A stretch of 64,000 nucleotides of DNA from contig JAANOX010000243.1 in the NCBI GenBank assembly GCA_020184695.1, forward strand, positions 186,001 through 250,000, in the 5' to 3' direction. A program made the position numbers and the translations under genes. Positions 31,578 to 62,059 of this stretch are shown piece by piece (within the stretch, counting starts at the first letter, position 1; every line of letters starts with the position of its first letter). Origin of the DNA: Histomonas meleagridis 2922-C6/04-290x. Its lineage: Eukaryota; Protista; Parabasalia. Below the pieces are notes generated by a model. That model did not search any database, was not told the origin of the DNA, and saw only the letters and a list, made by a program, of their open reading frames with translations.

Positions 31578-33618
31578 ACACACACACACACAGCGCTATG
31601 TGAGCTTCGTGCTACGCACTCGCTCCCACTCGCGCTACATAAACTAAAGGATGAACGGCTAAAATCGATTGAATTATCATAAATCGGTTGGTTTTGATTG
31701 AAAGTAATAAAATATATTTAAATTCATGATGACATTTATATTTAAAATGTGTGAGGCATGAATCCGGCTGAGTTGTTGTTAATACTATGTGGATTTTAGT
31801 GTTTTGTTGTTAATCCTATGTAGATTTTAGTGTTTGGAGCTTAAAGTTGTTATTAACTGAGATTTTGAATGTAAAAAGTATCATTAAAATTTTGAGGGTT
31901 AACTTTAACCTTTTTTTTAACCCTTTTTTTAACCCTTTACGAAACGGAGAAAATGAGCATTTTTTGAATGATTTAACGCAAAAGTTGAAAGTTGATATAT
32001 CGGTAAGAATTTGACGTTAATTCTATGTCGAAAGTTGTTATTAACTGAGATTTTGAATGTAAAAAGTATCATTAAAATTTTGAGGGTTAACTTTAACCTT
32101 TTTTTTAACCCTTTTTTTAACCCTTTACGAATCGGAGAAAATGAGCATTTTTTGAATGATTTAACGCAAAAGTTGAAAGTTGATATATCGGTAAGAATTT
32201 GACGTTAATTCTATGTCGAAAGTTGTTATTAACTGAGGTTTTTGAATGTAAAAAGTATCATTAAAATTTTGAGGGTTAACTTTAACCTTTTTTTTAACCC
32301 TTTTTTTAACCCTTTACGAAACGGAGAAAATGAGCATTTTTTGAATGATTTAACGCTGAAATTGCATGTTTACAGGAGCTACTGTGAGGTTAAAAAAAAG
32401 GTTAACTTTTAGGTTGACTTTTCCTTTAATTTTTTATATATGTTTTTCTGATTTTTGTGTCACTTTTTGTGTAAAGGTCGTTGGTTCGAGATACAGCGAC
32501 ATTGAATTTTTTTGTGGAACCACTTTTTTATAATTTCATATAACATTTCTGTTTTTCGTTTCACGTAACATTTCCGGTAAATCATTTCATATCACATGTC
32601 TTTCCATTTCATTTAACATGTCTTTTCATTTCATATCACATGTCATTACTTAACGGATGCCAAAAATCGCACGTTTACACCGTTTCGTAAAGGGTTAAAA
32701 AAAGGGTTAAAAAAAAGGTTAAAGTTAACCTTTGAAAAAAATTAACGTTCGTTAGTGATACGTTTACGAAAAATAAACGGACGGAGAAAATGACGGTTGA
32801 TAAATTTGAACAACCGCTGAAAAAGTAAGTTGTGAAAAATAAACTTTTTTTAACGGATTTCAAAAAATTTTTTTTAAACGTTTTTCTGTTTAAAATTTAA
32901 CGGAAATTAACGGACGGAGAAAATGACGGTTGAAGTTGTTGTAAAAAATATTTTGAATTATCATTTAATTTAGTGGCAAATGTAAAATTTTTTGAATTGG
33001 TTTTTACAAGTATTAGAATCTTAAAAAAAAATCTGACACGCGTTTCTCGACACAGGAGCATTTTTTTTTCAATGTTGTAAAAGGTAAAGTATTGAATCAT
33101 TTTACAATGAAAAAAATTTAGGTGGTAATTGAACGTTAAGGATGAAAAATTGGCGGGCAGTGATGAGATTTGAATGAGTACTGAAAATGTAAATTTGAAT
33201 GATGCTATCAATTAGTGTCAAACGTAAAATTTTTTGAATTGTCATTGAATTTAGTGGCAAATGTAAAAAATATTTTATGACGGTGTTTATGACGAAGGAT
33301 AAAGTGAACGTTAAGGAAGAACGTTAGAGTCGAACGTTAAGGAAGAACGTTAGAGTTGAACGTTAAGGTAGAACGAGTAAAAAAAGTTCAAAAATAAAAT
33401 TCAATAGGTTTGGGAATCGAACGTAAGACATTAACAAAAAAACGCACTGTACGGGAATCGAACGTAAGGCGTTCATTGAAAAAGTGAAAAACTGACATTG
33501 AAATTTAAAAATAAATTTATCTCGTTATGTGATAGTTATTTTCACATGATTTACATATCAAACGATTTCTTATTGTTTGTATTTTCCGGAAAAGTTATTT
33601 TTTCTCCTTCAAACTCTT
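31578..33618 (+). repeat. Left terminal inverted repeat (~2.04 kb)
   Basis: Near-identical reverse complement of 52441-54475, from acacac-agcgctatgtgagc to ttctccttcaaactctt. Confidence 0.93.
31842..32355 (+). repeat. ~189-bp tandem subrepeat (about 2.7 copies) in left TIR
   Basis: aaagttgttattaactgag recurs at 31842, 32031 and 32219. Confidence 0.9.
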
Positions 33619-33742
33619 TTGAAATTGCTATATTTTGATTACCAATATATGCATTTAATGATATAATTCTATTATCGATTTCTTCACGTTTCTCAACAAG
33701 TTCGTTTGTGATCTTCTTGACAATATCATTTCTGGCTTTCAT
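33551..33742 (-). CDS. Small element ORF whose 3' end lies in the TIR
   Basis: 63-aa ATG ORF; its C-terminal 21 codons are within the left TIR. Confidence 0.35.
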   Translation of the reverse strand: MKARNDIVKKITNELVEKREEIDNRIISLNAYIGNQNIAISKEFEGEKITFPENTNNKKSFDM

Positions 33743-33788
33743 AAATCTATTATTTAATTCTGCAGGAGCAATATTTACAAGTTTCTTT

Positions 33789-34013
33789 TCATTTGTTTTT
33801 AGTAAGAATGTTATCGGTAAACTTTAAATTTACTGATTCAAGAAGTTTTAAATTCTTATCATAAAATTTAACGCCTACAAGAATATTATTATGAAGTATA
33901 GGTTTATTTGTTGGTTTGTCTATCTTCACTGTTGTATTATGATTATATTTAAAATCAACAGCGGCGTAATCAATTTTATATTCTGATATCAAATAATCTT
34001 GGAATGAATCCAT
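33789..34013 (-). CDS. Small element hypothetical protein
   Basis: 74-aa ATG ORF, divergent from the ATPase gene. Confidence 0.4.
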   Translation of the reverse strand: MDSFQDYLISEYKIDYAAVDFKYNHNTTVKIDKPTNKPILHNNILVGVKFYDKNLKLLESVNLKFTDNILTKNK

Positions 34014-34053
34014 TTATTAACGGTAAAAAATTTATTTTTATAAATAAAAAATA

Positions 34054-34955
34054 ATGCGAAAAAAAATAATTCGGAGAATATAGATAAAAAATTTGATGAG
34101 ATAGAAGAATTGTTTGATAAATTAGAAAAACAAAACAAAGAAATTTTAGAGAATGCAAAGATAAAACCAATACATGAAAAATTTTTATTTGCTCAAAACG
34201 GAATAACAGCTTTTATAGCGCCGATGGGTTCAGGCAAATCATATCTTTACGTTAAACTCGGAGCGAAACAAGAAGTATTATTTAACGAACCGTTTTTTGA
34301 ATTAATAACTATTTGTAGTACATCCTCAAAATTTGATGAAACAGTAAATACTTATAAAGGAGCATTATAGAAAACGAAAATTTTTACGATAAAAAATACT
34401 GATTTATTAGACTTGATTAATAAATATATTCTGAGAATTTTAAAATATAATAATATTATCAAATATATCAAATCTGTTTTTAAGAAAACGGATGAAGAAG
34501 TAGAAAGATTATTTATGAAATATAATTTGAATAACTCAAAGAAGAAATTAAAATACATTTCTGAAAAGTTAGCGAAATATCAATGGAAAACTTATCCGCA
34601 TAGATGTTTGTTGATATTAGATGATTTTGCTAATCATCCTTTGCTGAGAAGTAAAGAAACGGAGATGTCAAGATTACTTAAAAAACTCAGACACTTTAAT
34701 ATTAACGTTATCATTTGTGTGCAAACAACAAAAAGTATACCAAAAGATATAAAAAGAACTTTATCAGATATTGTATTATTTAATGGAATTGGAAGTGAAG
34801 ACTTTTTTGATTTGTTGAAGGAATCACCAGCGAGTGTTTTTGACGCAAAAGCTTTATGGAAAGAATATAGCAAAATGAAAGACCCACACGCAACCTTCAG
34901 TATTCACATCAAAGCACGAAGAGTAATTATAAATCAAAAAATAAAAGAATCTTAA
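34054..34955 (+). CDS. Packaging ATPase (FtsK/HerA, A32-like); one in-frame TAG and a likely 5' poly-A frameshift
   Basis: Walker A FIAPMGSGKS, Walker B LLILDD, and LRHFNINVIICVQ. ORFs 34110-34370 and 34413-34955 are in the same frame, separated by TAG 34368-34370. Confidence 0.85.
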
Positions 34956-35002
34956 GATTCGGAACGGCTCTCTGAGCCTGAGCTCCTTCGGAGCGAAACA
35001 AT
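34948..35002. terminator. 55-bp GC-rich double hairpin, copy 1 (putative 3'-end signal)
   Basis: GGCTC-TCT-GAGCC (34966-34978) and GCTCC-TTC-GGAGC (34982-34994) between the convergent ATPase and mCP genes. Identical to 46473-46527. Confidence 0.5.
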
Positions 35003-35015
35003 GTTTCATAAAAAT

Positions 35016-35776
35016 TCATTTTTGATTTTGAATCTCACCGACAAATAAATCTTCATCCTGTATGCCTTGAACAGAAATTGTTATATACATTGGATTCAGT
35101 AAATGTACTTCGTGAAGGTTTGCGTCAACGAGTGTCAACTGTATATGTGACAAATCATTAGAATTTATGTCAATTTCAAAATCAGCGTTTGATACAATAA
35201 TCGGAAAAAAAAAAAAAAAAGAGTTATTGATTCTAAGAACGATTTTTGAAATGTTAATGGTTTCGTTTAAATTTCTATAAGAACTTTTTTTCCAACATTC
35301 GACAAAAGATATAATACTGGAGTTGATAAAGTATTTCCGACTGATTCAGCGAATATTTCAAATGTATCTGTACCATTAAATGTTGATGGTATAGGAAGAA
35401 TTTGTGAGTATAACCCTGATATTTGAATTATATTATATGAAGCATTATTTATTGTAAAGGCATTTGAAGAAGTAAATACAATTCTACCGGCTTCGTCGAC
35501 TTCAGACGTAACGCCTGATTCTTGGATGAGAGAGTTTAAAAGTAATATAAACGTTTGAGAGTTTAAGTCAGTGTAATCATTATTGAAATAGTATTTTTTA
35601 CCGTTAATCTGTATAAAATCATCTTTCTCAATAACAACAATAGAACATTTAGTCGTTAACGATGTTACAATCATTTTTGCTTGACGTGTTGGCGGTGACG
35701 GTAAGTTTACGTCAATTCTATTGTAATGTTCAGCGTCGTAGGAAGAAATTGTATAATCAATTACTGCATTATACAT
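35016..35776 (-). CDS. Putative minor capsid (penton, single jelly-roll) protein, frameshifted at homopolymers
   Basis: Beta-rich ORF continues after shifts near 35210-35290 into PIIVSNADFEIDINSNDLSHIQLTLVDANLHEVHLLNPMYITISVQ, resembling the Polinton/PLV penton C-terminus. Confidence 0.6.
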
Positions 35777-35819
35777 TTTATATATTGTAAAAATTTATGA
35801 ATAACATATATAAAAAATT

Positions 35820-36180
35820 CAAGGGTTAAAAAATCACAAAAAGTTAACCTTTCAGTAACTCGAGCAAACATGCAATATTCGCGTCAAATCATTCGAAAAA
35901 CGCTAATTTTCTCCGTTTCGTTGAGGGTTCAAAAAAAGGGTTAAAAAATCACCTTTGAAAATTAAAAGGTACTTTTTACATTCAAAACCTCAGTTAATAA
36001 CAACTTTAAGCTCCAAACACTAAAATCCACATAGGATTAACATTAAATTCTTTCCGATAAATCAACCGTCAACTTTTGCGTTAAAGCCTTCAAAAAATGC
36101 TCATTTTCTCCGTTTCGTTGAGGGTTCAAAAAAAGGGTTAAAAAATCACCTTTGAAAATTTAATGATACTTTTTTAACAT
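35820..36180 (+). repeat. Internal diverged copy of TIR subrepeats
   Basis: Contains cattcaaaacctcagttaataacaactttaagctccaaacactaaaatc and aaaatgctcattttctccg, same orientation as the right TIR (about 54180-54230 and 53815-53835). Confidence 0.85.
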
Positions 36181-36339
36181 TTTAATTTATGTAAAATGTT
36201 TTTTATTGGTGTTTGGATGTGTGTTATTGGAACCATTTACGTTTTAAATTCAATCGTAAATACAATGATAAAAATATATGTTGTATTTAACGAAGAGGAA
36301 GGAGATAACAAAGATATCCGTGAAGATATTAAAAAGGTC

Positions 36340-37172
36340 ACTTTACTCTTAAAGTACAACAGTTTTTTTCTGTAATTATAAAGAAATACTAATTGAATAA
36401 TAAACCTGCAATATTTCGGATAAATATTATTTTTACCGTTTGTTGTAAATCTAATGTTAAATGTTGAGCCATCAGTTGGCGCGTTATATAATACAGTAAA
36501 AAAAAAAAAAAAATCACCTTTGATGCCAATGAATCGTCTCTTCGAATCACTAAATGAAGCATGAAATTCTAAATACTCTCTGTTCCAAACATTATTAAAA
36601 GTCATTACTTCCTTTTGAGTTGACAAATAACTTATACTTTCTGACGTTACATCTTGATTTAAGAATTTCAAAAAACTTTCTAAATTAGATGTAGTACTTC
36701 CTGAATCAACAATCGCAAATTTTTGCGACAAGATTTTGGCTTTCATCCGAGCCTACATAAGTACAAGCAAAATATAAATTGCCTGAGTCTTCGTATTCAT
36801 AAGATAATCTATAACTCGCAAATGAATTATTAAAACTATTACAAATTGACGTTAAAATTTCAAATAAAGTATTTTGCGCCATAACTTGAATTTTTAATGA
36901 TACGTGGATTAGGTGAAGAACCACTGACGCTTTCAGGTTTAGTTACTTCAAACTGTAATGAGAAAACGTGAGCGGTCGGCGTTATATCTAATCTTCTTAT
37001 GCCAATAGCTTTATTCTGTGACGGAGACTCTAACCAACGTTGAGGATAACGGAAAGTATAACCATTTTGAGGATTTAATACTTCATACTTATCTAAATCA
37101 AGATTTGTATAATTTTTGTTCAATCGGTAACTGAGACGCAGTTGTTGTAAATTGATTTTCAGTTTTATACAT
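36340..37172 (-). CDS. Element beta-rich protein (possible second structural protein), frameshifted
   Basis: ORF pieces 36860-37123, 36706-36924 and 36237-36746 appear to be one gene starting at ATG 37172. The 3' end is approximate. Confidence 0.45.
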
Positions 37173-37188
37173 TTTTATCTTATTAAAA

Positions 37189-37413
37189 ATGTCAAATTCA
37201 CAGTTTGAAAAAATTGAAAATATAGTAAGAGCATTAATGAATAAAAAAAACACTATTGTATACAGTAATCAATCAAAAAAATCTAATACATTATCAAATA
37301 GTATATGTACATTACAGAAAAATAGTTATGACAAATCATTTGTTTTCACTTACGGAAGAAATCATGTTGTAATATCACCGTTAGATAATAGCATAAAAAA
37401 ATTTAAAATATAA
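37189..37413 (+). CDS. Small element hypothetical protein
   Basis: 74-aa ATG ORF, head-to-head with ATG 37172 (16 bp apart). Confidence 0.45.
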   Translation: MSNSQFEKIENIVRALMNKKNTIVYSNQSKKSNTLSNSICTLQKNSYDKSFVFTYGRNHVVISPLDNSIKKFKI

Positions 37414-37483
37414 CAAAAATAATATTAAATGTGATGATATAAATACTGGAAAAAATAAAAAAAAAAATGCATATATAATTGAA

Positions 37484-40400
37484 ATGTTCGGTAAAATAAA
37501 TAAAGTATTGGATTTATATAAACAATTCGTAAAAATCAATGAAGATAGTAATAATGTTTCAATTACAAATTTAATTATTGATACCATTAATGGTTATTCA
37601 ACAGATGATTTTGCATTAAAAAATCATACACATGAAATAATTAATAATGATTTAGCTATTAATGGTAGTCTTGTCGCAAATTCCATTAACGGATATTATA
37701 TTTCAAACAGTATTGGAGGAGGTTCTAATTCAACAGTAAATATTCCATCAATCGCGACTATTAAATCAGATGGAGTCATGGAAGTCGGTGAGTATATTGA
37801 TTTTCATTATAGAGATGATTATAATAAAGATAATACGTGGAGAATTAGAGCAATAACCGATACATAAAAAAAGATGGAAGTACAATTAGTTTTAATAATA
37901 ACGGTAATATAACAGTAAATAGTATTAATGGTATTTCTACAAATGATATATCACTAACGACGCATAATCACGACGACAAATACTCTCCGTTAAATCATAT
38001 TCATAGTGATTATCTAACTAATGCTAACTTAGAAAGTATTAATCATAAATTAACAGGAATATATTATAATGAAGAAACGATTACTAATGAGGAAGAAGAA
38101 GAGGATATTACTGAAAAATATACTTTAATAAATCAAGATCTTATAGTTAATGGTACGATTAATGATATTAACACAGAAGAAATAGCTTTAGTTCGAGACG
38201 GAATTTTATCTACCGGAGACGTTATATCATTTGAAAACGGAGTCAGTATATCAACTTATGATAATACTACTGATGAAGGAATTACTGAAAATAATTTATT
38301 AATAAATTTTTCTAATGGTAATAGTATCATGTTAGAGGATAGCGGACATACTTATGGTATAATTAATAATGAAAGAGAAATAAAAACAGAATACTATTTA
38401 ACAAAACAAATGATCATTGATGATGAAGACATACAAGAAATTTTAATGGGACCTCCAGGAGAAGACGGTGAATCCACATATAAAGAAAGTTTTGTTGATA
38501 GTATATTTGATATAATAGATACATTTTTTACAGCTGCTGATACAGCATATACTATAGCTCAAATTGTAAGTCAAATAAAAAATTTTGGGTGGGCAGGATT
38601 TTTATATAATAGTTTTGGGATTAATGTTATGAAGTCAAAAGGTTATTTACCGTTACCATCATTGAAATCAGTAGTTTTTGATGAATATGATATATCGACA
38701 GGTGGAATGTTGGAAGATTTAGAAGTTCCAAACGCTGATGATATTGACCAAGAATTTAATGAATATAATTATTTAATAAATCTATTCCCAGAAATGAATA
38801 TTATATTTAAAAATTTGAAGTATTATTATAAAGACGTCTCTAAAGGTCAAAGAACAAATGAATTAGGTCTTTTTATTAGTCGATTGTCAGATATATAAAC
38901 GTTTCGTTAATCATAAACATGATAATTATTTAATAGCTGCTGATTTAAATAATTATACAGGAATAACTTATCATAAAGATTTATTAGAAACTAATGAAGA
39001 GGAGGAAGAAATATATGAAATCTACACGTCAATTAATCAAGATTTAAAGGTTAATGGATCGCTGATCTCCGATAGCTTTAGCTGTCGCGGTAATGTTGAA
39101 TGTACAACAATTAATGGTATTGATTTAGATGAATTATCTGTTATCAGTAATGATATATTTAATATTAACAATAAATTAACAGGTATTACTTTTAATAAAG
39201 ATTATGTCGAAACAAATGAAGAAGAAGATATTTATGAAATTTACACGTCAATTAATCAAGATTTAAAAAAATAAATGGTAATATAGAATGTACAACTATT
39301 AATGGTATTGATACTAATAACTTTTCTTTAACAAATCATACTCACAATCAATATTTAACTAATGATAATTTAACTGATATAAATAAGGCTTTAACAGGAA
39401 TATCATATAATGAATATGGCGATTGGACTAAGATTAAACATGATTTATTAGTAGGTAATGATATTTCATGTAGAATATTGACAGCAAGTCGTAATATCAA
39501 TATTGATTGTAGTAAATATTCAGATGATACAAATATTTATAAAGGATTGTTTATTCATAGAACTAATGCAATGCCGGGTGATTCTATTAGGATGGAAATA
39601 GGTGTATTGCCTAATGGAGATGATTGTAGCGTAATAGAACATTACGTAGGTTCTGATGATAATATTGATACTTGTCTAAGATTCAAAGTTTGTGATGGCA
39701 ATTATGTAAGTATATATAAAAATGGTAATATTAGTTGTAATAGTATTAATGGAATTGATACTAATAATATTTCATTAACAACACATAATCATGATGATAA
39801 ATATTCTTTATTAAATCATAATCATACAGAATTTAATAATGCTATTACTATTAATGGTGAACTTATTGTAAATAGTGATATATTTATTGATGGTAATATA
39901 AATTGTATTTCTATTAATAATATTTCTGTTGATAATTTCTCATTAAAAAATCATACTCATGATACTATTGATAATGATTTAAATGTTAATGGTAATTTAT
40001 ATTGTGAAACAATTAATGGAAAAATACCTGAAGAATTCTCATTAAAATATCATAATCATGACGATAGATATTCTTTAACAACACATAATCATGATGATAA
40101 ATACTCTTCGTTAAATCATACTCATAATGAATACTCATTAACAACACATAATCATGATGATAAATACTCTTCGTTAAATCATACTCATAATGAATACTCA
40201 TTAACAACACATAATCATGATGATAAATACTCTTCGTTAAATCATACACATGAAATTATTAATAATGATTTAGCTATTAATGGTAGTCTTGTCGCAAATT
40301 CCATTAACGGATATTATATTTCAAACAGTATTGGAGGAGGTTCTAATTCAACAGTAAATATTCCATCAATCGCGACTATTAAATCAGATGGTGTAATGGA

Positions 40401-41278
40401 AGTTGGACAATATATTGACTTTCATGATAATAATGATTTAAATAGTGATTATTCTTGGAGAATAAGAACTGCCGGCAATGTTATGTATTTCGGTAAACTT
40501 GATAATAATGATGGTGTTATTAGTTTCAATGGAATTGATGGTAATATAAATTGTATTTCTATTAATGATATACCTGTTAATAATTTTTCTTTAAATACAC
40601 ATACTCATAGTTATAATGATATTACTGATAAACCATCAACATTTACTCCATCATCTCATACTCATCAACCTGCTGATATTGTTCCTTATCAAAATTCTGT
40701 ATTAAAAACACGAAGATTTTTTTAGATTTCGTTTTTCATAATAATTCAACAGAAGCACCAGGTATTTATACTTGGAGAATAGCATCATATGAAAATGAAT
40801 TAGGATTTTGGCATATATCAGATGATACATACAGAAAAAGCTATTATATCAGATTGAATGGTTTTTGATATTGGCTCTCCTGTATTTATAACAGGTAACG
40901 TATATAAATTAAATAATAATAATTATACTTCAGTTACTGATTCTACTAATTGTATTCCTAGTGTTAAATCATCAGGAACTTATAAAGAATTTATCGGAAT
41001 TTGTACAGCAAAAACATAACTCTGGTGAAATTTTTTTTTTTTTTTACACAATTAAACAAGACATATCGATTAATCAAGATACAATTGATTTTGCAACTCA
41101 CGGAGATTATTATTTTAAAGTTACTGATTCATCAAAATATAATATTGGCGATACAGTGCTTTATGATGAAACTATATTAGATGACGAAACACCATTAACG
41201 GCAAAAATAAATAATATGATTATTGGAAAAGTCACCGCTATTATATCTGATTCTCTGTTAGCTGTATTTCGCTCTTAG
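37484..41278 (+). CDS. Large fibre-like protein with HxH repeats and phage tail-fibre motifs, split by frameshifts
   Basis: Fragments 37484-37867, 38329-38898, 39478-40725 and 40961-41278. Motifs THNHDDKYS, LKNHTH, KSDGVMEVG(E/Q)YIDFH twice, ITDKPSTFTPSSHTH and GPPGEDG. Confidence 0.6.
40075..40250 (+). repeat. 63-bp (21-aa) tandem repeat in fibre gene
   Basis: ttaacaacacataatcatgatgataaatac starts at 40075, 40138 and 40201. Confidence 0.92.
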
Positions 41279-41598
41279 AGCTCAAAGGCATTTTCTGCCA
41301 TTTCGGCAATAATATCTCGAATTCTTTTTAATGATTCATTCACATAAATTAACACTTCATTTATTTTTTTATGTTGTTCTGCAATAATATTTTTATTCTT
41401 TTTACTTCTTTTATCCTTCGGTTCGTTAATTTCTAAATATTGTTTACAAATTTCTAATGGTGATTTTTCTATTAAATCATTTTCTACAATAAAAGTAATC
41501 AGTAACTGAATATAAAATTCATTTAAATTAATTTTTGCAGTTTCTATTTCTTCGTCAATGTTTTCATATATTTTATTTATATCAAAAAATCTTTCCAT
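41275..41598 (-). CDS. Element hypothetical protein (107 aa)
   Basis: Intact ATG ORF preceded by TATATAAAATG; its stop overlaps the fibre-gene stop. Confidence 0.55.
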   Translation of the reverse strand: MERFFDINKIYENIDEEIETAKINLNEFYIQLLITFIVENDLIEKSPLEICKQYLEINEPKDKRSKKNKNIIAEQHKKINEVLIYVNESLKRIRDIIAEMAENAFEL

Positions 41599-41694
41599 TT
41601 TATATAAAATAAAAAAATAAAAAAAATAAAAATTAACTTTAAAAAAAATTAATGCTAATTTTTAAAAAAATTTATTTTTTTAATTTCTATAAAA

Positions 41695-42657
41695 ATGTTA
41701 ATGAAAAATTCTTGTTCTGCTCTTGTTTCGGAAAATCAAACGTCTGCTTTATGCTTAACTAAATTAAATAATATAAAGATTGAAAATAAAATTGATGATT
41801 CAGTAAATGATTATGCAAATACTATTAAAGAATATAAAAATAAAATTTTGAATCATCAGCTTCCCGTTGAAGTTAAATTAGAAAGAAATCAACAATATTT
41901 AGAACAAATTTTAGAATTTGCAAAATCAATTCCTGCTGTAAGCATTCCTGAATTAACGCTTGATGTTTCGGTCAAAAGTTTTCCAAAAATTGAGATTGAA
42001 AAAAGTGATTCAACAGAAATAAAAGCGTTAATTAGAAAAATTAACAGAAAAACACAAACCTTTTCTTGCGATCACTCAGCGCTCGAACGTAAAGCATTAA
42101 CATATAATGCTGATGCCTTAAAATTACGTAAAAGGTCTGAATTAAAGATAATTGATGATTTTTATAAGGTATTAGCCGAATATTGCTGGCGAATTAAAAA
42201 TAAAGATATAAGAGGAAAGGAATTTAATGAGTTTAATATTGAAATGTATGATGTTGATAAAGTTATTGAAGCTTCAATGAATTTTTCGGCTGAAGTTTAT
42301 AATTTCAACGCTAAGTATCATTCACTGAAATGTGATAAATGTGAAAAATTGATGAAAGAATATGAATATTCAGTTGAAGATATAGAGGAAAGAAGAAAAG
42401 AAGAAGAAGAAAGATTAAAAGATGAAATTAAAAGAATTCAAGAAGAAGTTGAAGAAATAGAAGATATTAATGATTTCGTTGAAGAGTATTTTCCAAATAA
42501 AGAAAGAATTTATGTTATGTCAATCGTTAAAATGTGGAAAGCAGTTAAAAAGTGCATGATTCGAAAAGATGAGATTAAAGGAATGCTTGAAGAAACAGGA
42601 AATTGGAAAATAACAAACGTTCATAATACACTTTATGCTACAAAAATAAAAGAATAA
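41695..42657 (+). CDS. Element protein with coiled coil and small C-terminal domain (possible DNA-binding)
   Basis: Intact 320-aa ORF; Glu/Arg-rich coiled coil followed by a ~60-aa compact domain. Confidence 0.6.
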   Translation: MLMKNSCSALVSENQTSALCLTKLNNIKIENKIDDSVNDYANTIKEYKNKILNHQLPVEVKLERNQQYLEQILEFAKSIPAVSIPELTLDVSVKSFPKIEIEKSDSTEIKALIRKINRKTQTFSCDHSALERKALTYNADALKLRKRSELKIIDDFYKVLAEYCWRIKNKDIRGKEFNEFNIEMYDVDKVIEASMNFSAEVYNFNAKYHSLKCDKCEKLMKEYEYSVEDIEERRKEEEERLKDEIKRIQEEVEEIEDINDFVEEYFPNKERIYVMSIVKMWKAVKKCMIRKDEIKGMLEETGNWKITNVHNTLYATKIKE

Positions 42658-42723
42658 AGAATTAATTTTAGAAAAAAATTAAACTTAGTTTTAAAAAAAA
42701 TTTATTTTTTTATTTTTGATAAA

Positions 42724-45009
42724 ATGCCAAAAAGATTGAGCAAAAAAGAAGTTAGAAGTTTATTTGAAAAATACGGATACACTTTACCGAAAAATTTTGA
42801 TTATAGAAATACTTCAACACCGCTTGAAGTTTATGACGAACAACATCAAAGTTATAAAAGATTGAGTGTTAATCAATTAAGATATAAAATATCAAGAGGA
42901 AGATCTGAATATATTCCGGAAGAAATTAATAATTTAATGAATCTTCCTTTAAGTGATAATGAACCGAAAAATAAAGATTCATTCGAACGTTTCAGTAAAA
43001 AGAAAGATGGATTTTTCAAAAATGAATCAGAAGATTTTAAACGTGAAGTATTTAATTTAACAAATAAATTGACAAAAAATTTAATGAAACAAAAAGATTT
43101 TACGTTTGAAAACAAATCAAGTATTGATACATTTCTTTCTGCTTTGATGTATGCGATTGAAACATGTGGTACTAAAATTAATAAAGATATTAAAATGACT
43201 TTAATTGATGAAGACGGAAGAGAACAATATTTGCATGCAAATAAAAATACCGTTGAATTTTTACGTGCTGGATTAAGTAATGAAAGAATCATTGGTGATA
43301 CAAATGATGTTGTATTTGAACATATGTTATTTATTAAAACCATTCATTTTGAATTTAAAGATTTCAAAAAAGGAAAGAGAATAAATCCAGGATTCTTTCC
43401 TTATATCAACACGTCAGATATTGATTTAAGAAAATTTGGAATATTTACAGACGTTAATGATTCTAATATAAATGAATCATGTTTAATTCAAGCATTTATT
43501 GCTTCAGAAGTATTGAAAGAAGATGAGTTAGAATTACTGAAGAGCTTTATTCAAACGCGAACTGTTCCAAGAAGTGAGTTAAAGAGAATTTCTGATTTAT
43601 TGAAAATCAAAATTGAAGTCAAAATATTTTATCCAGAAACCAAACATACACGCGTAAAGGTTTTTGGTGAGAATTACAACAGAGAAATAAAATTAATAAT
43701 TATCGAAGACCATTATATGCTAAATTCTAAAGTTAATGTTTCAGAATGTTATATAAAGAATTATGATAAAATAAATGCTGATTCAAGATTTAAAAATCAT
43801 AACAGAAAAATGATGTTATTAAAGTTTGACGACAAAAGATATTCATTTTCTAAAAAATGTTTGGGTATAAGAAGTTTGATTTATTTAATGATACAACATA
43901 AACTTTTAATGCCAATGAATCAACAAACAATAAATAAACTTTCATGGAGTTATAAGAAATCAAAAAATAAATCTTTTAACTCTTATAGAAAAATATTTGT
44001 TACTGATAAAAAACCTTTATCGATTTATTCTAAAAAAGTTAATCAAACAAAAAGTTTCTTTGGATACATTCCAGAAGAAAATGAAATCCCGGAGAGATTA
44101 AAAGAACTTCAAGAAGTTATTGATTCGTTGAAATTAAGAAAAAGAATTAATGTATCAAGATATTATAAATTTTCTGAATTAATGCAAAAGATAATGTTTG
44201 AGTTCGGATGTTTTGATAATGTATATTCATTTTCTGGAGAGATTGCAGATAAAATAAGATCTGAAATTCATTTTCCAAAAATTATTTGGAATAAGATTTA
44301 TTTAAAACAAAAACTTTATTATATTGATCAATGCGGAGCGTATATGTCAAGTGTTCAATCAATTCCTGCTGGATTACCTGATGCTAACGGAAACTTTAAA
44401 GAAGAAAACACAAAAATAAAAGAGTTAATAGAAAAATTATATGATGCAAGAATGAAAGCCAAATTATTGGGAAAAGATAAATTATCAACAACACTTAAAT
44501 TTTTGATGAATAGCTGCTGGGGATTTTCGATTCAAAAACCAAAAATTATAAAACATAAATTTGTAAATAACGTTAATAAGTATATTGATGAATTCGCACC
44601 TTATGTATTAAAATACACTTATAATGCAGATGGAATTTCAGGGTTTGTTGATACAATTAATCCTTATGTCGAATGTTTCACTTATCCACAATTTGCAAAA
44701 AGTGTATTAGATAATTTTAATGAAAAAATGAATCTTATAAAAGATCTTGTGAAAGTTTATTACTCAAAGGTTGATTCTGCGTTAGTGTCGGAGGAAGATT
44801 TTAAATTACTAAAAGATAAAGGATTTATTGGTAATGAACTCGGTAAGTTCAAGATTGAGCACGTTTTCACTGAAGTGTATTTTAAATCTCCCGAAAATTT
44901 TATCGGTAAGCATGAAGACGGAAGTTATTACTATCACTGCACGCCAAAAATAAAACAATACTGTGAAAATTCAAGTGATCCGATAAAGAAATTAATGAGT
45001 ATGAGCTAA
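42724..45009 (+). CDS. Divergent protein-primed family B DNA polymerase
   Basis: Intact 761-aa ORF. Motif A YYIDQCGAY, motif B KFLMNSCWG, motif C YYSKVDS, then LGKFKIE. Confidence 0.8.
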   Translation: MPKRLSKKEVRSLFEKYGYTLPKNFDYRNTSTPLEVYDEQHQSYKRLSVNQLRYKISRGRSEYIPEEINNLMNLPLSDNEPKNKDSFERFSKKKDGFFKNESEDFKREVFNLTNKLTKNLMKQKDFTFENKSSIDTFLSALMYAIETCGTKINKDIKMTLIDEDGREQYLHANKNTVEFLRAGLSNERIIGDTNDVVFEHMLFIKTIHFEFKDFKKGKRINPGFFPYINTSDIDLRKFGIFTDVNDSNINESCLIQAFIASEVLKEDELELLKSFIQTRTVPRSELKRISDLLKIKIEVKIFYPETKHTRVKVFGENYNREIKLIIIEDHYMLNSKVNVSECYIKNYDKINADSRFKNHNRKMMLLKFDDKRYSFSKKCLGIRSLIYLMIQHKLLMPMNQQTINKLSWSYKKSKNKSFNSYRKIFVTDKKPLSIYSKKVNQTKSFFGYIPEENEIPERLKELQEVIDSLKLRKRINVSRYYKFSELMQKIMFEFGCFDNVYSFSGEIADKIRSEIHFPKIIWNKIYLKQKLYYIDQCGAYMSSVQSIPAGLPDANGNFKEENTKIKELIEKLYDARMKAKLLGKDKLSTTLKFLMNSCWGFSIQKPKIIKHKFVNNVNKYIDEFAPYVLKYTYNADGISGFVDTINPYVECFTYPQFAKSVLDNFNEKMNLIKDLVKVYYSKVDSALVSEEDFKLLKDKGFIGNELGKFKIEHVFTEVYFKSPENFIGKHEDGSYYYHCTPKIKQYCENSSDPIKKLMSMS

Positions 45010-45098
45010 AAAAAAATTTATTTTTCGGCTGATTTTGCAAAATAAAAAATTAAAGCTAATTTTAAAAAAATTTATTTTTTTATTTTCTATAAAATAGA

Positions 45099-45662
45099 AT
45101 GAGTTGGATTGATTGTGTTGCAGATGCTGATTATCAAATATTCACAGAATTTCCGTTTCAAATAAGAAGAAAATCAAATAAAAGAATCATTAGCGAACAT
45201 GTCGATGAAACACGAGGCGGATACGTTCAATGTCGCTTAAACGGCAGAAAATATCTTAAACATAGAATAATAGCAGAACAATTTATACCAAATCCTGAAA
45301 ATAAACCTTTTATAGATCATATTAATCATGACAGAACAGATTTTCGCATTAATAATCTCCGCTGGGTTTCTTCATCAGAAAATAATTCAAATAAATCATC
45401 ATACCTTGGGAAAGATTATGAATATTTTGATGAAATTAACGAAGATTCAATTGAAGTTAGAGAGTATAACAATTATCTATTTGAGGATTATTACTATGAC
45501 AATGAAACAGATTCGTTTTACTTTTGGAACGGTTTGCAGTTCAGAAAATTGAACATTTGCTATGATAAGCGCGGTTATGCTTTAGTTTATGCACGCGATA
45601 TTAATAATAAACAAGTTCAGATTTATTATGCAAAATTCAAAAGAATTTATGGTTTCGACTGA
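45099..45662 (+). CDS. HNH endonuclease (HNH_3/homing type)
   Basis: HRIIAEQFIPNPENKPFIDHINHDRTDFRINNLRWVSSSENNSNK. Confidence 0.9.
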   Translation: MSWIDCVADADYQIFTEFPFQIRRKSNKRIISEHVDETRGGYVQCRLNGRKYLKHRIIAEQFIPNPENKPFIDHINHDRTDFRINNLRWVSSSENNSNKSSYLGKDYEYFDEINEDSIEVREYNNYLFEDYYYDNETDSFYFWNGLQFRKLNICYDKRGYALVYARDINNKQVQIYYAKFKRIYGFD

Positions 45663-45664
45663 AT

Positions 45665-46080
45665 TTATTTATAACTTATTTTTCCTGATGACTTAACAAA
45701 TTTTGTTGATATTTTTCTTTCGCTTAAGAATTCACAGACGTCAGAGTAATTATATTTCAAATTATAAGTATTACCGTCTTTCTTTACATATATTTTTGAT
45801 ACATAATCTAACGTTGAGCTTTTGCAACATCCGGCGTCGGTGTCCGCCTTCACTAACTCAACTTCTTGAGTATCACATAATAATTGAACAAGTTTAACTA
45901 ACTATTTTCTGTTGCATTAACATTAGGATAAACCGCTACATTTTCATAAGGATTTGATACTCCTTTTACCACAACATTAACGTTTTGACTTTGACTTTGT
46001 TTCGGAGAATTTATATTAGTTCCAACTCTTGCAAGAAATCCTCGATTGCAGGATAAAACACTACTTTTAGGAACTGACAT
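45665..46080 (-). CDS. Element hypothetical protein, one frameshift
   Basis: ORFs 45898-46080 and 45665-45853 join if one T is restored near 45900; the same sequence is conserved in the older relic. Confidence 0.55.
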
Positions 46081-46119
46081 TTTTTATAAGTGATAAAAAT
46101 TTATTTTTACTGTTATTAA

Positions 46120-46500
46120 ATGGAGGAATCTCTTATTCCAATAAATATTTTCGATTTCATCAAACATCTAAAATTAAATAAAAAGATAACAACAAAACAA
46201 TTACCGTTTATAGAAAATATTTATTTCTATATTAATGATTGCGTAATATATAAATATGTAATTGCTGTACGTCCTGAAATGTTTAAAAGAGCGAAACGTT
46301 TCGGTTTGGAATCATTATATAATGTCTATTGTGGAATTAATGTTAAGATTTATGAACCAATACCAAATACAGCAAAAGGAAGATTTATTTTGATGTGGAA
46401 TCCAGGCAATTGTGAAATTACAGTTGCTGAAGGTGAAGACGAATTACCAAATAATTTTGACAAAAATAAAAAAATCTTAAGATTCGGAACGGCTCTCTGA
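46120..46500 (+). CDS. Element hypothetical protein (~120 aa)
   Basis: ATG ORF in TAAATG context; a homologous relic is present at about 30990-31100. Confidence 0.55.
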   Translation: MEESLIPINIFDFIKHLKLNKKITTKQLPFIENIYFYINDCVIYKYVIAVRPEMFKRAKRFGLESLYNVYCGINVKIYEPIPNTAKGRFILMWNPGNCEITVAEGEDELPNNFDKNKKILRFGTAL

Positions 46501-46527
46501 GCCTGAGCTCCTTCGGAGCGAAACAAT
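46473..46527. terminator. 55-bp GC-rich double hairpin, copy 2
   Basis: Identical to 34948-35002; lies between the convergent 126-aa ORF and the MCP gene. Confidence 0.5.
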
Positions 46528-46549
46528 ATTTTATAAATCAATAATATTT

Positions 46550-48165
46550 TTATCTTGCTCCTCCGGCAATTATCTGCTCGATTGATGCGTTGGTAATTTC
46601 AATTTGACTTCTACCGTCAGGCTTCATTGCTCGAACTTTCAACAGTGCATCTTCAAAATAAATTCCAGTCGGTGCGATAAAGTTTACATTTTTCATTGCG
46701 GTATTTGCCAAACGATCGCCAAATAATTCAATCTGTACCGTCCCAGTTGTTGATATTCCACCCATAAAATCTTCTCCCTCAGCAAATGGTAATCCAATGA
46801 AGAAATTACTGTTATCTTTACCGTGCCACACTCGTGTTTGGGTATTAACGCCAGTATTATTATAAGTATTCTTGAAGTAATACGGTTGAACAGAAGTTTT
46901 AATATCTTTTGACAAAGAACTCAGCAAGCTTCCATTAAGATTTACTGCATCAAGAAGCATATTAAGATTTCTTGGATCATCAACTGTTTCGTATGCTTCT
47001 CTTGGATAAATTTTACCGTCAATATTAAAACTATATCTTATTTGAGGATTTAAGAAGCATGTTCGTGAATATTGTGATTCTCTGAATACAGTAAACATAG
47101 TATCACAATGTTTAAGTCCTATTGTTGCTGCTGTGTTAAATGATGTTGGAGCACTTGTTGAATTACTTCCGAGTGGTTGTGTGAAATCTCTTACTTGACA
47201 AACGTGAATTGGAAATAGCATCGGAACTTGAATATATTTTGCAGCAAGAGCATTAAACACATCCATTTTCAAAAAGATATGTTGCAAGCTTAATTTTAAC
47301 ATCTTTTGTAACTTGGCTATTGCAAACAAATTTTTTGAGGTGCATCCATTGTTGCGTAAGTTGTTGAACCGCTTCCTGCTGTTGCTTTAATGTTGCTCTT
47401 TACTGATTCATTAACATTTCTAAATCCAAGGTCACATAAATAATCTCCTTCAACTACAGCTTTTGCAGCAACTAATGATTCATGATCGCATACAGGAGCA
47501 ATAACAATATTTTGATATGAAGGCATCAGTTCGATTGAAAGCTTGCCGCTCCAGTTAGGATAATATCGCATATTAAATAACATTAAGAAATAACTTAATG
47601 GAATTCTTAATGGAATCCTGACTATAACTTCTTTAGATGCAGTAATTGCACTAAAGTCACAGTAAACGCCAGGAACCATTGAATCATGAGCTCTGATTTT
47701 ATCAATAGTTGCGAAACAATCATTACCGGCTTTAGCTTCATCAGATAATGAATTAGAAAGCATGAACCATTCATACCTTGCGTTATGAACGTCTTGAATT
47801 TTATCTGTGTTTGAATAAATTCTGTATTGGTCTATAGCATCGCATGAACATTTATAACCGACATAATATTCTTTAAACAAAAGATTTGATTGTGACGGAA
47901 CGGTAATTGGTACTTCTTGTTCTAAAGTAATATATGAATTATCTAAACCAATAATCTTAAATCTATCCGTGAAAATGTCAACGTATGTTGTATCTCCTTC
48001 GTTTATATCTCCAACATTGCCGTAAGAAGTAGCTGTCGTGTATTCATAATTGCCTGGAATGATTTCAGAAGCTTTAACTGCTTCATCAACTTCATTATAC
48101 CAATCTTGAAGGTTTCCAGTCATTGCATCAATAACATTTGGTTGTTGATTTTGTGGTGCAAACAT
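46550..48165 (-). CDS. Putative major capsid protein (double jelly-roll), ~537 aa after removing two homopolymer insertions
   Basis: ORFs 47317-48165 and 46550-47329 join. Size and beta-rich motifs (LDNSYITLE, VRIPLRIPLSYF, RYYP..SGKLSIEL) fit a Polinton MCP; position within the Maverick supports this. Confidence 0.65.
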
Positions 48166-48191
48166 TTTATAGTGATAAAAAAATCAAAACA

Positions 48192-49944
48192 TCAATTAGA
48201 ATCTAAGTCTTCAACAGTTACTGTATTTGTTAACGGTAACAATCTTCTATTAGAAAAAGTTCTTAAATCATTATAAAATTGAAGTAGTAAATCAGGTGCT
48301 AATTGACTTTTATTTGTTCTAGTAAATCCAGCATATTTATGTTGATTTTCTGCTAAAAATTGATTAAATCTATCATCTCCAATTGAATTAATCAAAGCAT
48401 CAATATTATATTCAAGTTGTATTCTTTGATTATTTTGATTTACAACTTGTTGTGCAATATCTGATTGTAATTGATTTGTTATTGCTAATTTTCTTGTCGG
48501 TGATAGATTACCGCTAAACATTTGTTGTTGTATTTCAATTTGTGCTTGACTTTCCATTGCTTTTTTTGTATACTCATTCGCTAACTCAACATCTTGAGCT
48601 CTTCTTTGATTTTGTAACGTTGCTATTTTTCAAATTTGTATTTTTCTGTATTTGTGCTTTATGTTCGGCAGAATTTAAATATTCTAATTCAGCATCAAGA
48701 GCTATTTTATTTTCTTCGGTTGCTTGTAATTCCTCTCTTCTTTTAATTTCTTTTTCACGTTCCTTCGTTTGAACTTTTTTCTTAGCGTTCTTAACAATCG
48801 ATTCTTTGTGCGTCTTGCTTATTTCTGGTTTTGGTCCAACGGCTGTTTGATATGCTCCTAATTCTTGAGCTTTAATTTCTTCATCAACTGTTTTTCGTTG
48901 TTGCTCAATTTCCGCTTCTTTCAATCTTTCAAATCTTGCTCTTGCTCTTAATCCAGGTCGTTGTTTTTTTCTTCTTCAGCAAGTTGTTGTTGATATAAAC
49001 CATTAATGCTTTCCATGTATTGATTATCTAACGCCTGATATTGCTCCGGAGTTAATGCTGTTATTCTTTTAATTCTTTCTTGTTCAAATTTTTTTTTTTA
49101 GCTTCATTTTTGAGCTTTTAATAGTTCATTTTTCATAACGTGCTCTTTCTAATTCATATTGTGTCTGTGCTCGCATTTCATTTGCATTCTTATAATCTTC
49201 TGATTTTAAAACTTTCTGTAAAGTTTCATTTTCATTCTTTACTTTTTCTAACTCACGTTGCAAGCTACTTTTAATTCGCATTTGTTCATTAGCTTCTATT
49301 TCATGTTGGCGTTCAATAGTAAGCATTTTTGCTTCAGCTAATTGAGCTTGAATTGTTGCGTTTTGATCTTTTAATAAATCAATGTCGCCTCTATACTGAG
49401 TTTTTTTAAGTTCTGCCAAAGCTTTTGCGTAACGTTCAGTTTCTTGTTGAGCTTTGTTTGCTAATTCATGCTGACGTTCAATCTCTCTTTCTGCCATTTC
49501 ACGTTTTTGCTTTTCTTCGTTATACTTTGCCTCAGCAGCTTTTGTTGCTTTTTTCATATTTCTTTCTTGTTCATCCAAATTCTTTTTTCTTGCTAATTCA
49601 TCTTGTTTCTCTCTTCGCGTATCATTAATTTGTTGTTGACGAACATCGTTTTGATTTCTCATATTATGTATTGCGTCAAGATTTACGTTTTTTGGCGTTT
49701 GTGATTAAGCAACAGGAAGAGATGGGTTTTGTAAATTTGCCATCATTTGTGACCTAGCAGAACTACTATTTTGATTTTGCGGTAAGGGAAGAATATTTGA
49801 TCTAACACTAGCGTTTGGGTTAATTGTTGGTGCTTGAGTAATTAGTCGATTCGCGTGCGAACTTTGCGATAGCAAATGCCTTAATCCACGTTTAACATTT
49901 TTTTTTGTTTTTCTAATTCTTCGTTTGACTGCTTTCTTTGTCAT
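48192..49944 (-). CDS. Long coiled-coil protein with highly basic N-terminus, multiply frameshifted
   Basis: Starts MTKKAVKRRIRKTKKNVKRGLRH; fragments 49705-49995, 49126-49662, 48586-48924 and 48192-48557. Confidence 0.5.
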
Positions 49945-49967
49945 TTTATAAAAATAAAAATATTGAT

Positions 49968-50600
49968 TTATAAATATTGAACTCTTGCTCTCCATCCGCG
50001 TTGTACCGGCACGTTATAAATTTGTTCTTGAGGTTCAGAAACTTGAGCTTCGGACGAAAATATAACTTCCTTTTTGTTCTTGTTCTTCATTTTTGTTCTT
50101 CATTCTTTGTTTGTTCAACTGTTGGAATTTCTTCTGAGTCAATATAAATGTCATTCTTTAAACTTCTGTATTTCTTCTTAAGCTTTTTTTTGTTTACCTG
50201 TTAATTTATCTAATCTTGAATTTAATTCAATTATATGCTCCATTAATAATTGGTCGTTTGATAAATAAACTTTACCGTCGTTGTTGTTTTTTTTTTCTTT
50301 TTGACTTACCGTTGGAGTTTTTGATTTCTTTGCTATAACTCTAGCGTTACCGTTCTTGAAAAATTTGACGTCAAAGAATTCATTTTCAATTCCTTTTTTA
50401 GCATTAGCAATTATAATTTCTTTTTCTTCTTGTGTTAAATCTTTTACCGACCTTTTGGAAGGATCGAGCCTCGGCGAGACTGCTTTCTTTGTTATCTTAA
50501 CATCAGATGTTTTTTCTTCATCAACATTTTCGGTTTCCTCTCCCAAAACAATTTCTGTTTCAGTTTCGTGACTCAAAACTTCATTCTCTGTATCAGTCAT
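49968..50600 (-). CDS. Element hypothetical protein, frameshifted
   Basis: ORF 50178-50600 continues past a poly-T shift to PVQRGWRARVQYL*; a homologous relic is at about 62950-63410. Confidence 0.55.
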
Positions 50601-50638
50601 TTATTAAATATAAAAAAATGAAAAAAATTCATTTTATT

Positions 50639-51121
50639 TTAAGATGCAAACTTAGTATCTCCCGGAGCATAAGGCATCACTGCGGGTCGAGGTTGACCGG
50701 CACCATATCTTCTTCCTCCAAGTATCACATCACCGGTATATTTTGGTTTTGTTAACTGACCATAAATTTTTCCTCCTGCTTGAATCCAAGGTTGAGTTTT
50801 ATCCGAAATCTTTTTGACCTGTATCGATTACTCTATCGGCTACTTCTTTGCCTTTTTTTCAACTGCTTGTCTTATTTTGTCTTTAATCTTACCGTCAGGT
50901 ACGGCATCAACTATTTTATCTATTTTATCTGTTATATCTCCTTTACGCTTTCTTACCGTATCAATTATTCCTGGAATCTTTTTTTTTTTTTTTATTCCTC
51001 GACTGATTATTGGCGAGACCTTACCGTAAATTCTCTTTCCTTTATCAATAACTTTTCTTACAAGTCGTCCTGCATTTTGAATAAATTTTCTTATTCCACC
51101 GAATATACGACCTAATCCCAT
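50639..51121 (-). CDS. Putative myristoylated amphipathic-helix (membrane-penetration-like) virion protein
   Basis: MGLGRIFGGIRKFIQNAGRLVRKVIDKGKRIY: Gly2 followed by an amphipathic basic helix. The 3' part is frameshifted and its end is approximate. Confidence 0.45.
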
Positions 51122-51158
51122 TTAATATAATTAAAAAAAACGTTTTAATAACTCTTAA

Positions 51159-52314: not shown

Positions 52315-52440
52315 TATTAATATTTATTTTTATACATGACAAACTAACTAACTAACTAACTAACTAAAAAAGAAACTAGCTAAAGGAAATTCAAAATTGT
52401 TCCGTGAGTTTCTCCATTCATGTGAAATCACTTGAAAATC

Positions 52441-55439: not shown

Positions 55440-56010
55440 CTTTAAATTTCTCAGATATCTCTTAACTTCTGCGGTGGTATATGGGAATAATAACTGCCGT
55501 TTTCATGTTTGCCAATCCAACAAGCAGCAGATTTGGAATATATTTATGTAAATACATGTTCAATGATTTTTGATATAGCGCAGAATCTACTTCATAATAA
55601 TAGACGTTAACGAAATTCTTTATTATATTCATTTTGTTATTAAAATTTTCTAAAACACTTTTCGAGAATTGAGAATAAGTGAAATTTTCAACATAAAAAT
55701 TTACAATATCAACAACAAATCCCGAAATTTCGTCTGCGTTATACGTGTATTTTAATACATAAGGCGCGAATTCATCGATATATATATCAACGTTATTTAC
55801 AAATTTATGTTTCATAACTTTTGGTTTCAGTATTTAAAAACCAAAACATGAATTTAAGTGTGATTGACAATTTATCTGTTCCCGATAATTTGGCTCTCAT
55901 TCTTGCTACATATGATTTTTTTATTAGCTTTTTTTTATTAGCTCTTATATTATGGTGTTTTCTTCTTTAAAGGTTGCCATTAGAATCAAGCAATCCAGCT
56001 GGCTATAGCT
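55440..56010 (-). pseudogene. Decayed pPolB of the older Maverick
   Basis: KHKFVNNVDIYIDEFAPYVLKYTYNADEISGFV...YYYEVDSA, close to the intact pPolB C-terminal half. Confidence 0.88.
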
Positions 56011-62030: not shown

Positions 62031-62059
62031 AAGCTTTAATTGGGTGTATCATGAAAGAA

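What the first reader, a model, noticed from the sequence alone, without database searches (positions are those of the whole stretch)
37484..41278. Phage-tail-fibre-like gene in a eukaryotic Maverick
The ~3.8-kb gene has many HxH motifs (THNH, NHTH, SHTH; HxH coordinates metal in trimeric T4-type fibres). It also has two copies of a SDGVMEVGxYIDFH module, DKPSTFTPSSHTH, a short collagen-like GPPGEDG and variable-number 21-aa repeats. I recognise these motifs from bacteriophage tail fibres. The C-terminal domain (GSPVFITG..IPSV..FIGI..FATHGD..IGD..IGKV) resembles intramolecular-chaperone/peptidase-type fibre termini. A receptor-binding fibre is not part of the canonical Polinton core, so this argues for an extracellular virion and module exchange with gut phages.
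Basis: partly seen in the sequence, partly recalled or inferred. Interest (0 to 1): 0.85.

Follow-up and report, generated by a model that had tools for sequence, protein, structure and literature searches.

The report
Maverick fibre with His-type self-cleaving cap
This is a broken copy of a likely virus-particle fibre gene in a Maverick element of a gut protist; phage-like fibres in such elements are already known, but its end domain is predicted to fold like the self-cleaving chaperone cap of the phi29 tailspike, with histidine where phi29 has its catalytic glutamate.

Summary
The motifs are real and belong to one gene, but it starts at 37189 (not 37484) and is broken into eight pieces. It lies in a 22.9-kb Maverick/Polinton-like element in a likely parabasalid genome. 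Intact collinear orthologs of 1,091-1,234 aa exist (38 of 120 listed hits). Shaft modules match phage fibres (Bxb1 collar fibre, a crAss-like phage protein). Phage-like fibres in Polinton-like viruses, including T. vaginalis ones, are in print, so the headline is not new. GPPGEDG is not collagen, and nothing shows recent exchange with gut phages. The less ordinary part is the C-terminal ~155-aa domain. It has no S74 or Peptidase_G2 Pfam match, forms a family of 276 representatives, ends the protein, and is swapped on and off identical N-termini. Its model (pLDDT 89) is a tandem beta-tulip matching phi29 gp12 D4 (Z 8.2-8.3, tied with capsid cement proteins). Its invariant T-x-x-H falls in register with gp12's cleavage motif D692-x-x-E695. 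Best reading: a His-type self-cleaving trimerisation chaperone that would stand in for S74, which is reported absent from parabasalid elements. Cleavage and trimer formation are untested. This copy has lost the T-x-x-H motif.

The parts
31578..54475 (.). Maverick/Polinton-like element, 22.9 kb, with ~2-kb terminal inverted repeats, AC/GT-repeat ends and a 5-bp target-site duplication
37189..41278 (+). whole fibre gene, broken into eight pieces (about 1,370 codons summed over pieces, which overlap)
   Evidence: 52-78% identity to N-termini of intact relatives
37484..37867 (+). piece F1: one HxH and first SDGVMEVG-YIDFH module
   Evidence: 229-nt duplicate of 40239-40467 at 91%
37849..38898 (+). 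piece F2: two HxH, acidic stretch, and a conserved helical insert (~38400-38890) with an amphipathic segment; GPPGEDG lies at its start
   Evidence: model unusable (pLDDT 42)
38867..39274 (+). piece F3: shaft repeats (INQDL-NG type)
39256..40725 (+). piece F4: main shaft, 13 HxH, three 21-aa repeats, second YIDFH module, DKPSTFTPSSHTH phage-fibre repeat
40719..40841 (+). piece F5: small beta module just before the C-terminal domain
   Evidence: 54% identity to P0252 residues 13-53
40861..41278 (+). pieces F6 and F7: C-terminal tandem beta-tulip domain; its T-x-x-H start is missing in this copy
   Evidence: 62-67% identity to P0252; model and fold searches of P0252
34044..34955 (+). A32-type packaging ATPase, in two pieces
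   Evidence: PF04665 E 2.6e-9
46550..48165 (-). likely major capsid protein, in two pieces (inferred from size and a weak match; not verified)
   Evidence: E 0.003 to the 539-aa gene of L011; no family or PDB hit
42724..45009 (+). divergent protein-primed polymerase B-like gene
   Evidence: E 2.5e-5 to the L011 polymerase, which is PF03175
51159..52314 (+). rve integrase, in two pieces
   Evidence: PF00665 E 3.6e-8

Best explanation
The region is a frameshifted and partly deleted copy of a gene that in intact elements likely encodes a homotrimeric virion fibre, whose C-terminal tandem beta-tulip domain is predicted to act as a self-cleaving trimerisation chaperone. Shown: one gene, phage-fibre repeats in the shaft, a strictly terminal conserved domain, its predicted fold, and tips swapped on identical N-termini in relatives. 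Inferred: the N-terminus docks on the capsid vertex; the HxH repeats from three chains bind metal along the fibre axis, as in T4 gp37 (recalled); the terminal domain trimerises first, nucleates folding of the shaft, then cuts itself off just before T-x-x-H, using His (with the invariant Cys, His and Asp) where phi29 gp12 uses Glu695; the exposed tip then binds the protist host. This particular copy would not make a working fibre.
For: 38 of 120 listed hits match pieces F0, F2, F4, F6, F7 in order as single ORFs of 1,091-1,234 aa. Relatives are named 'minor tail protein' and 'tail fiber domain-containing protein' in Histomonas meleagridis. Shaft: PHROG tail families E 2e-7 to 2e-2; Bxb1-type collar fibre 9D93 shares DKPSTFTPSSHTH, E 6e-6 (phage name recalled); YIDFH module in 52 phage records at E<=1, best 8e-6 in crAss-like cr125_1. 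In L001, L011 and L017 one fibre gene lies among capsid-like, ATPase and integrase genes; 17 of 26 loci hold such a core gene. C-terminal domain: 276 representatives at E<=0.001; of 125 full-length domains among the 150 listed, 122 end within one residue of the protein end, on bodies of 0-2,137 aa; T, H, C, H, D all present in 118 of 125. Model pLDDT 89.2 aligns to gp12 D4: 3GQH Z 8.2, rmsd 3.6, 104 residues, 66-219 on 692-854; uncleaved 3SUC Z 8.3, rmsd 3.5, 109 residues, 61-219 on 687-854. The same offset of 626 puts the invariant Thr on D692, the first residue of the released fragment, and by three-residue extrapolation the His on E695, which is Gln in the uncleaved structure. Identical N-termini occur with and without the domain (L003/L016 versus L001/L006; L011/L009 versus L017; L010/L024 versus L022), so the domain is not a required anchor. 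S74 is reported absent from parabasalid elements (PMC12220804).
Against: The D4 match is tied with phage capsid cement proteins (9KMG Z 8.4-8.7, 9KMH 8.3, 7KMX 8.2, 8QSY 8.2), and Z near 8 is a middling score. Sequence profiles do not link the domain to Peptidase_G2 (hhalign probability 2.5%; scores below shuffled controls), and its only recurring Pfam hint is Phage_cement (6 of 19 members, best E 8e-4); the Atlas look-alikes are also cement-sized proteins. No member has Glu at the catalytic column (0 of 125). The register rests on range ends, not a residue-level alignment. The model is of a relative (P0252), not of the window's broken copy. Only 9 of 125 family bodies have four or more HxH, so the shaft type is a subfamily trait. 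The capsid genes of the element were not verified.
Confidence: 0.55

Rival explanations
1. It is a fibre, but the terminal domain is an uncleaved trimerisation cap or receptor-binding knob; the invariant His, Cys, His and Asp bind a metal or a ligand.
For: The catalytic Glu of G2 is absent in all 125 domains; His/Cys/His/Asp is a plausible metal set; relatives replace the domain with another short beta tip, as receptor tips are replaced.
Against: The domain is far more conserved than the bodies it is fused to, unlike variable receptor tips; conservation begins abruptly at the position of the gp12 cleavage site.
Confidence: 0.22
2. The terminal domain is a cement-type anchor: its trimer sits on capsomer three-fold sites and the N-terminal body projects outward as the fibre.
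For: Fold scores tie with or slightly exceed D4 for cement proteins; weak Phage_cement hits; the conserved end of a fibre is usually its anchor, and here the C-terminus is the conserved end across the family.
Against: Fibre genes with the same N-terminus lack the domain in 17 of 24 gut loci; in phi29 gp8.5 the beta-tulip base is N-terminal (chain range 3-113); cement needs no invariant His/Cys/Asp.
Confidence: 0.18
3. The gene was recently assembled by module exchange with gut phages.
For: Best phage hit of the YIDFH module is a crAss-like gut phage (E 8e-6); 45 of the 81 listed hits without the terminal domain carry the KPxTFxPxxHxH repeat, and many carry phage-tail Pfam labels; one near-identical relative is labelled as from a Bacilli bin (P0011, 98% to P0024).
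Against: Hits are short and mostly 27-51% identical, and include Mycobacterium, Aeromonas, Cellulophaga and Vibrio phages; no phage, IMG/VR or prokaryote-genome hit for the terminal domain (low-sensitivity searches); the best predicted-structure matches are algal giant-virus proteins; GC is like the element's. Old shared ancestry of modules explains the data.
Confidence: 0.12
4. The pieces are unrelated ORFs or the motifs are low-complexity chance.
For: Eight separate frames; no Pfam hit above threshold for any piece; Asn/His-rich composition inflates some E-values.
Against: 38 intact collinear single-ORF orthologs; non-repetitive N-terminal, helical and C-terminal parts match at 39-78%.
Confidence: 0.02

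Closest known systems
Bacteriophage-like fibre proteins of Polinton-like viruses (PMC12220804; Ltf of Gezel-14T/PgVV, bioRxiv 10.1101/2022.07.28.501842)
   Same: Long modular gene with phage-tail repeats inside a Polinton-like element; T. vaginalis elements are reported with phage tail repeats; Ltf was found in purified particles.
   Different: No S74 chaperone, no true collagen, no laminin G; ends in a tandem beta-tulip domain not mentioned in the section read.
phi29 gp12 D4 autochaperone (Peptidase_G2, PF11962)
   Same: Predicted tandem beta-tulip fold, last ~155-163 residues of a spike or fibre, conserved motif at the same register as the cleavage site.
   Different: T-x-x-H instead of D-x-x-E; extra invariant Cys and His-Gly-Asp; 11% identity, no profile match; attached to an HxH shaft, not a beta-helix.
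Beta-tulip capsid cement proteins (T1/FCWL1, XM1, E217, Pam3)
   Same: Same fold at equal Z; weak PF22758 hits.
   Different: They are small stand-alone proteins; this domain is nearly always the end of a longer protein and carries invariant polar residues.
Terminal domains of algal giant-virus proteins and the Colwellia phage 9A tail fibre J
   Same: Best predicted-structure matches (E 4e-8 to 2e-5); the Colwellia protein has T-G-S-H about 150 residues from its end (by eye), so a His-type may be wider than parabasalids. PBCV-1 fibre P22 has a weak G2-like match.
   Different: No sequence-profile link to this family.
Mycobacteriophage collar fibre (PDB 9D93) and T4 gp37-type HxH fibres
   Same: 13-residue identical repeat core with 9D93; HxH motifs.
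   Different: Similarity is confined to short repeats; no T4 gp37 hit by sequence, only weak Atlas leads.

Membership tests
Maverick/Polinton-like element | terminal inverted repeats and 5-6 bp target-site duplication | tested here: met
Maverick/Polinton-like element | rve integrase and A32-type ATPase | tested here: met
Maverick/Polinton-like element | protein-primed polymerase B | tested here: inconclusive
   no Pfam hit; E 2.5e-5 to a PF03175 protein; motifs A and C altered
Maverick/Polinton-like element | double jelly-roll major capsid and penton proteins | tested here: inconclusive
   candidate by size and weak match only; not folded
Phage-like viral fibre | repeat modules homologous to phage tail fibres | tested here: met
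Phage-like viral fibre | homotrimer with metal-binding HxH sites | not tested
   complex prediction queue was full
Phage-like viral fibre | present on particles and binds host cells | not testable with these tools
   needs particles
Peptidase_S74 chaperone (PF13884) | Pfam match | tested here: not met
   0 of 19 members at E<=1
Peptidase_G2 / gp12 D4 (PF11962) | Pfam or profile match | tested here: not met
   0 of 19; hhalign 2.5%; control gp12 scores 281 bits
Peptidase_G2 / gp12 D4 (PF11962) | tandem beta-tulip fold at the extreme C-terminus of a spike or fibre | tested here: met
   (score tied with cement proteins)
Peptidase_G2 / gp12 D4 (PF11962) | D-x-x-E motif with catalytic Glu | tested here: not met
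   T-x-x-H; Glu in 0 of 125; D and E invariant in 9 of 9 G2 sequences
Peptidase_G2 / gp12 D4 (PF11962) | self-cleavage after trimerisation | not testable with these tools
   needs protein
Collagen-containing fibre | run of G-X-Y triplets long enough for a triple helix | tested here: not met
   two triplets, not kept in P0024-type orthologs

The most novel reading that the evidence does not exclude
Parabasalid Mavericks are active gut viruses whose fibres are matured by an undescribed class of self-cleaving chaperone: the phi29 D4 fold with a His/Cys/His/Asp site in place of the catalytic Glu. The domain is swapped on and off fibre tips between elements, and a related His-type may cap giant-virus and some phage fibres.
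Probability: 0.4. Interest if true: 0.7.

Novelty: new variant of a known kind. Interest (0 to 1): 0.5.

Why it matters
T. vaginalis-type Mavericks were long cited as capsid-less transposons, and no particle is described in the papers seen here. Intact fibre genes with swapped tips in gut metagenomes suggest that these elements do move as particles, and give a protein that can be expressed to test host binding. If the terminal domain cleaves itself, it explains why S74 is reported missing from parabasalid elements and adds a new catalytic type to fibre chaperones, testable with one construct and one His-to-Ala control. The fibre itself is expected for this kind of element.

Tried and rejected
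No whole genome is held for the window. Pfam gave nothing above threshold for the seven pieces scanned or for intact relatives. PDB sequence search with the C-terminal profile: best E 0.22. Foldseek PDB: no match at E<=0.001. No S74-type structure appeared in the fold lists (inconclusive). Profile links to G2 and to the Colwellia domain failed. Pattern scans for the terminal domain in IMG/VR and prokaryote genomes found nothing, and the shaft scan of IMG/VR gave 0 loci; these are low-sensitivity. The trimer prediction never ran because the queue was full, so there is no verdict. The model of the helical insert was unusable (pLDDT 42). No listed holder is on record as RNA; two runs guessed to be RNA gave a few low-depth contigs of divergent copies, which is no evidence on expression. 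Summed contig depth is hundreds of times that of single variant contigs, suggesting many copies, but it is not a copy number. Whether the breaks are real or assembly errors cannot be settled: other copies differ at several breaks, the host BspA gene is also broken, but the missing ~20 codons are not a homopolymer slip. Three look-ups of earlier findings returned nothing. Collagen and S74 readings were rejected.

Full report
Setting. Inverted repeats and a 5-bp target-site duplication delimit an element at 31578-54475. It carries an A32-type ATPase, an rve integrase, an HNH gene and DUF3839, a divergent polymerase B-like gene and a likely capsid gene (neither verified by a family hit). The flanks hold eIF3c, a phosphoesterase and a BspA-type repeat gene. 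With named relatives of the fibre in Histomonas meleagridis and Tritrichomonas musculus, the host is likely a parabasalid; the species was not determined. That DUF3839 is a Trichomonas family is recalled.

Observation. Every motif named is present. HxH occurs 17 times in the gene's pieces, of 23 in all window ORFs of 100 aa or more. The gene lies in eight pieces. Of 161 hits to the largest piece, 120 were listed, and 38 of these 120 match five pieces in order as single ORFs of 1,091-1,234 aa. Five of seven breaks lie at A/T runs; contigs of other copies differ at 38870, 39265, 40835 and 41010 and leave the window sequence at 40838 and 40863. About 20 codons at the start of the terminal domain are missing here. 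The copy is therefore probably dead, though some breaks may be assembly errors. GPPGEDG is two triplets and is not kept in the P0024 group.

Shaft. The main piece matches seven PHROG families, four of them tail or tail-fibre, over about 30-45 residues, the collar fibre of PDB 9D93 (E 6e-6) and 12 phage records. The YIDFH module matches 52 phage records at E<=1, best a crAss-like gut phage (E 8e-6, 40%) and an Aeromonas phage (E 1e-4, 51%), then Cellulophaga, Vibrio and Clostridium phages. So the modules are shared with phage fibres, but not specifically or closely with gut phages. Atlas leads for this part were weak (0.91 with about 100 of 256 features).

Relatives in context. A metagenome scan gave 26 loci. 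Of these, 24 hold a fibre ORF of this kind and 17 of 26 hold at least one core gene of the L011 type (the labels capsid and penton for those genes are my inference, the polymerase is PF03175). Seven of the 24 carry the terminal domain and 17 end otherwise; three N-terminal types each occur with both endings. Tips are thus exchanged, and the terminal domain is not needed as anchor in those elements.

Terminal domain. A profile found 276 representatives at E<=0.001. Of the 150 listed, 125 had the full domain; 108 end with it and 14 one residue later, on bodies of 0-2,137 aa, of which only 9 have four or more HxH. Thr, His, Cys, His and Asp are all present in 118 of 125. These records have no genomic context, so their source is unknown. 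There is no S74 or G2 Pfam hit; Phage_cement is hit weakly by 6 of 19. The model of P0252, which is 54-67% identical to the window's last three pieces, has pLDDT 89.2. It aligns to phi29 gp12 D4 at Z 8.2 and 8.3 and equally to cement proteins at Z 8.2-8.7. D4 is a tandem beta-tulip autochaperone for trimerisation (bioRxiv 10.1101/216911, passages read). Both gp12 alignments have the same offset, placing the invariant Thr on D692, where the released fragment begins, and by extrapolation the His on E695, which is Gln in the uncleaved crystal form. That E695 is catalytic is recalled from Xiang et al. 2009, not read here. Sequence profiles do not support the link. The best predicted-structure matches are large proteins of Pyramimonas and Tetraselmis viruses and a Colwellia phage tail fibre; the last has T-G-S-H at a similar place by eye, without profile support.

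Mechanism. Most likely (0.55): a trimeric fibre anchored by its N-terminus, folded from a terminal chaperone that then cuts itself off by a His-based variant of the D4 reaction. Rivals are an uncleaved cap or knob (0.22) and a cement-type anchor (0.18). That the gene encodes a fibre at all I put near 0.9. Trimer, metal, cleavage and binding were not tested; the complex queue was full.

What is known. PMC12220804 (section 13 part 1 and passages read; supplements not seen) reports phage-like fibres as widespread in Polinton-like viruses, phage-tail repeats with collagen in 20 T. vaginalis elements, and S74 absent from parabasalid elements. bioRxiv 10.1101/2022.07.28.501842 (passages) found the fibre Ltf in particles of a Polinton-like virus. 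PMC10120064 (passages) reports capsid genes in parabasalid elements. PMC9617893 (passages) shows trimeric fibres, including P22, on PBCV-1. Searches for a D4/G2 or beta-tulip domain in Polintons found no such paper: two of polinton, peptidase G2, beta-tulip, autochaperone, pre-neck appendage; one unrelated hit; listings only. The library lacks most subscription journals.

Verdict. The fibre is a new, broken member of a known kind. The terminal domain is a new variant with a concrete, cheap test. Interest 0.5.

Noticed in passing
window 42724-45009 (+): The polymerase B-like gene is open but has no Pfam hit; motif A reads DQCGAYMS and motif C YSKVDS, against DAVSLYPS and YQDTDS in the L011 polymerase. 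It may be an inactive or unusual polymerase.
   Followed up: partly
window ~38400-38890 (+): A conserved helical insert with an amphipathic segment (hydrophobic moment 0.53) sits inside the fibre of this subfamily only; a membrane-active role is conceivable, but the model was unusable.
   Followed up: partly
window 50840-51121 (-): Short basic ORF starting MGLGRIFGGIRKF, recalling adenovirus protein VI or Polinton PX membrane-lytic helices (resemblance from memory); similar N-termini occur in L011 and L001.
   Followed up: no
window 35016-35794 (-) and 36860-37174 (-): Candidate penton or minor capsid pieces next to the fibre gene; no family hit.
   Followed up: partly
window ~30480-31260 and ~55470-63930: Decayed remnants of related elements flank the element on both sides (capsid-like, polymerase-like, integrase and a fibre remnant near 56335-56440).
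   Followed up: partly
L001, L009, L011, L017: Polinton-like elements with open reading frames occur in gut metagenome contigs; L011 has a transposase-like eukaryotic-type gene at its left end, suggesting integration in a gut protist genome.
   Followed up: partly
window 17665-22575 (+): A long BspA-type leucine-rich repeat gene with 483-nt repeats, broken near its 3' end.
   Followed up: no
P0011: A 98% relative of the gut fibre family is labelled as from a Bacilli metagenome bin, probably a mis-binned contig.
   Followed up: no
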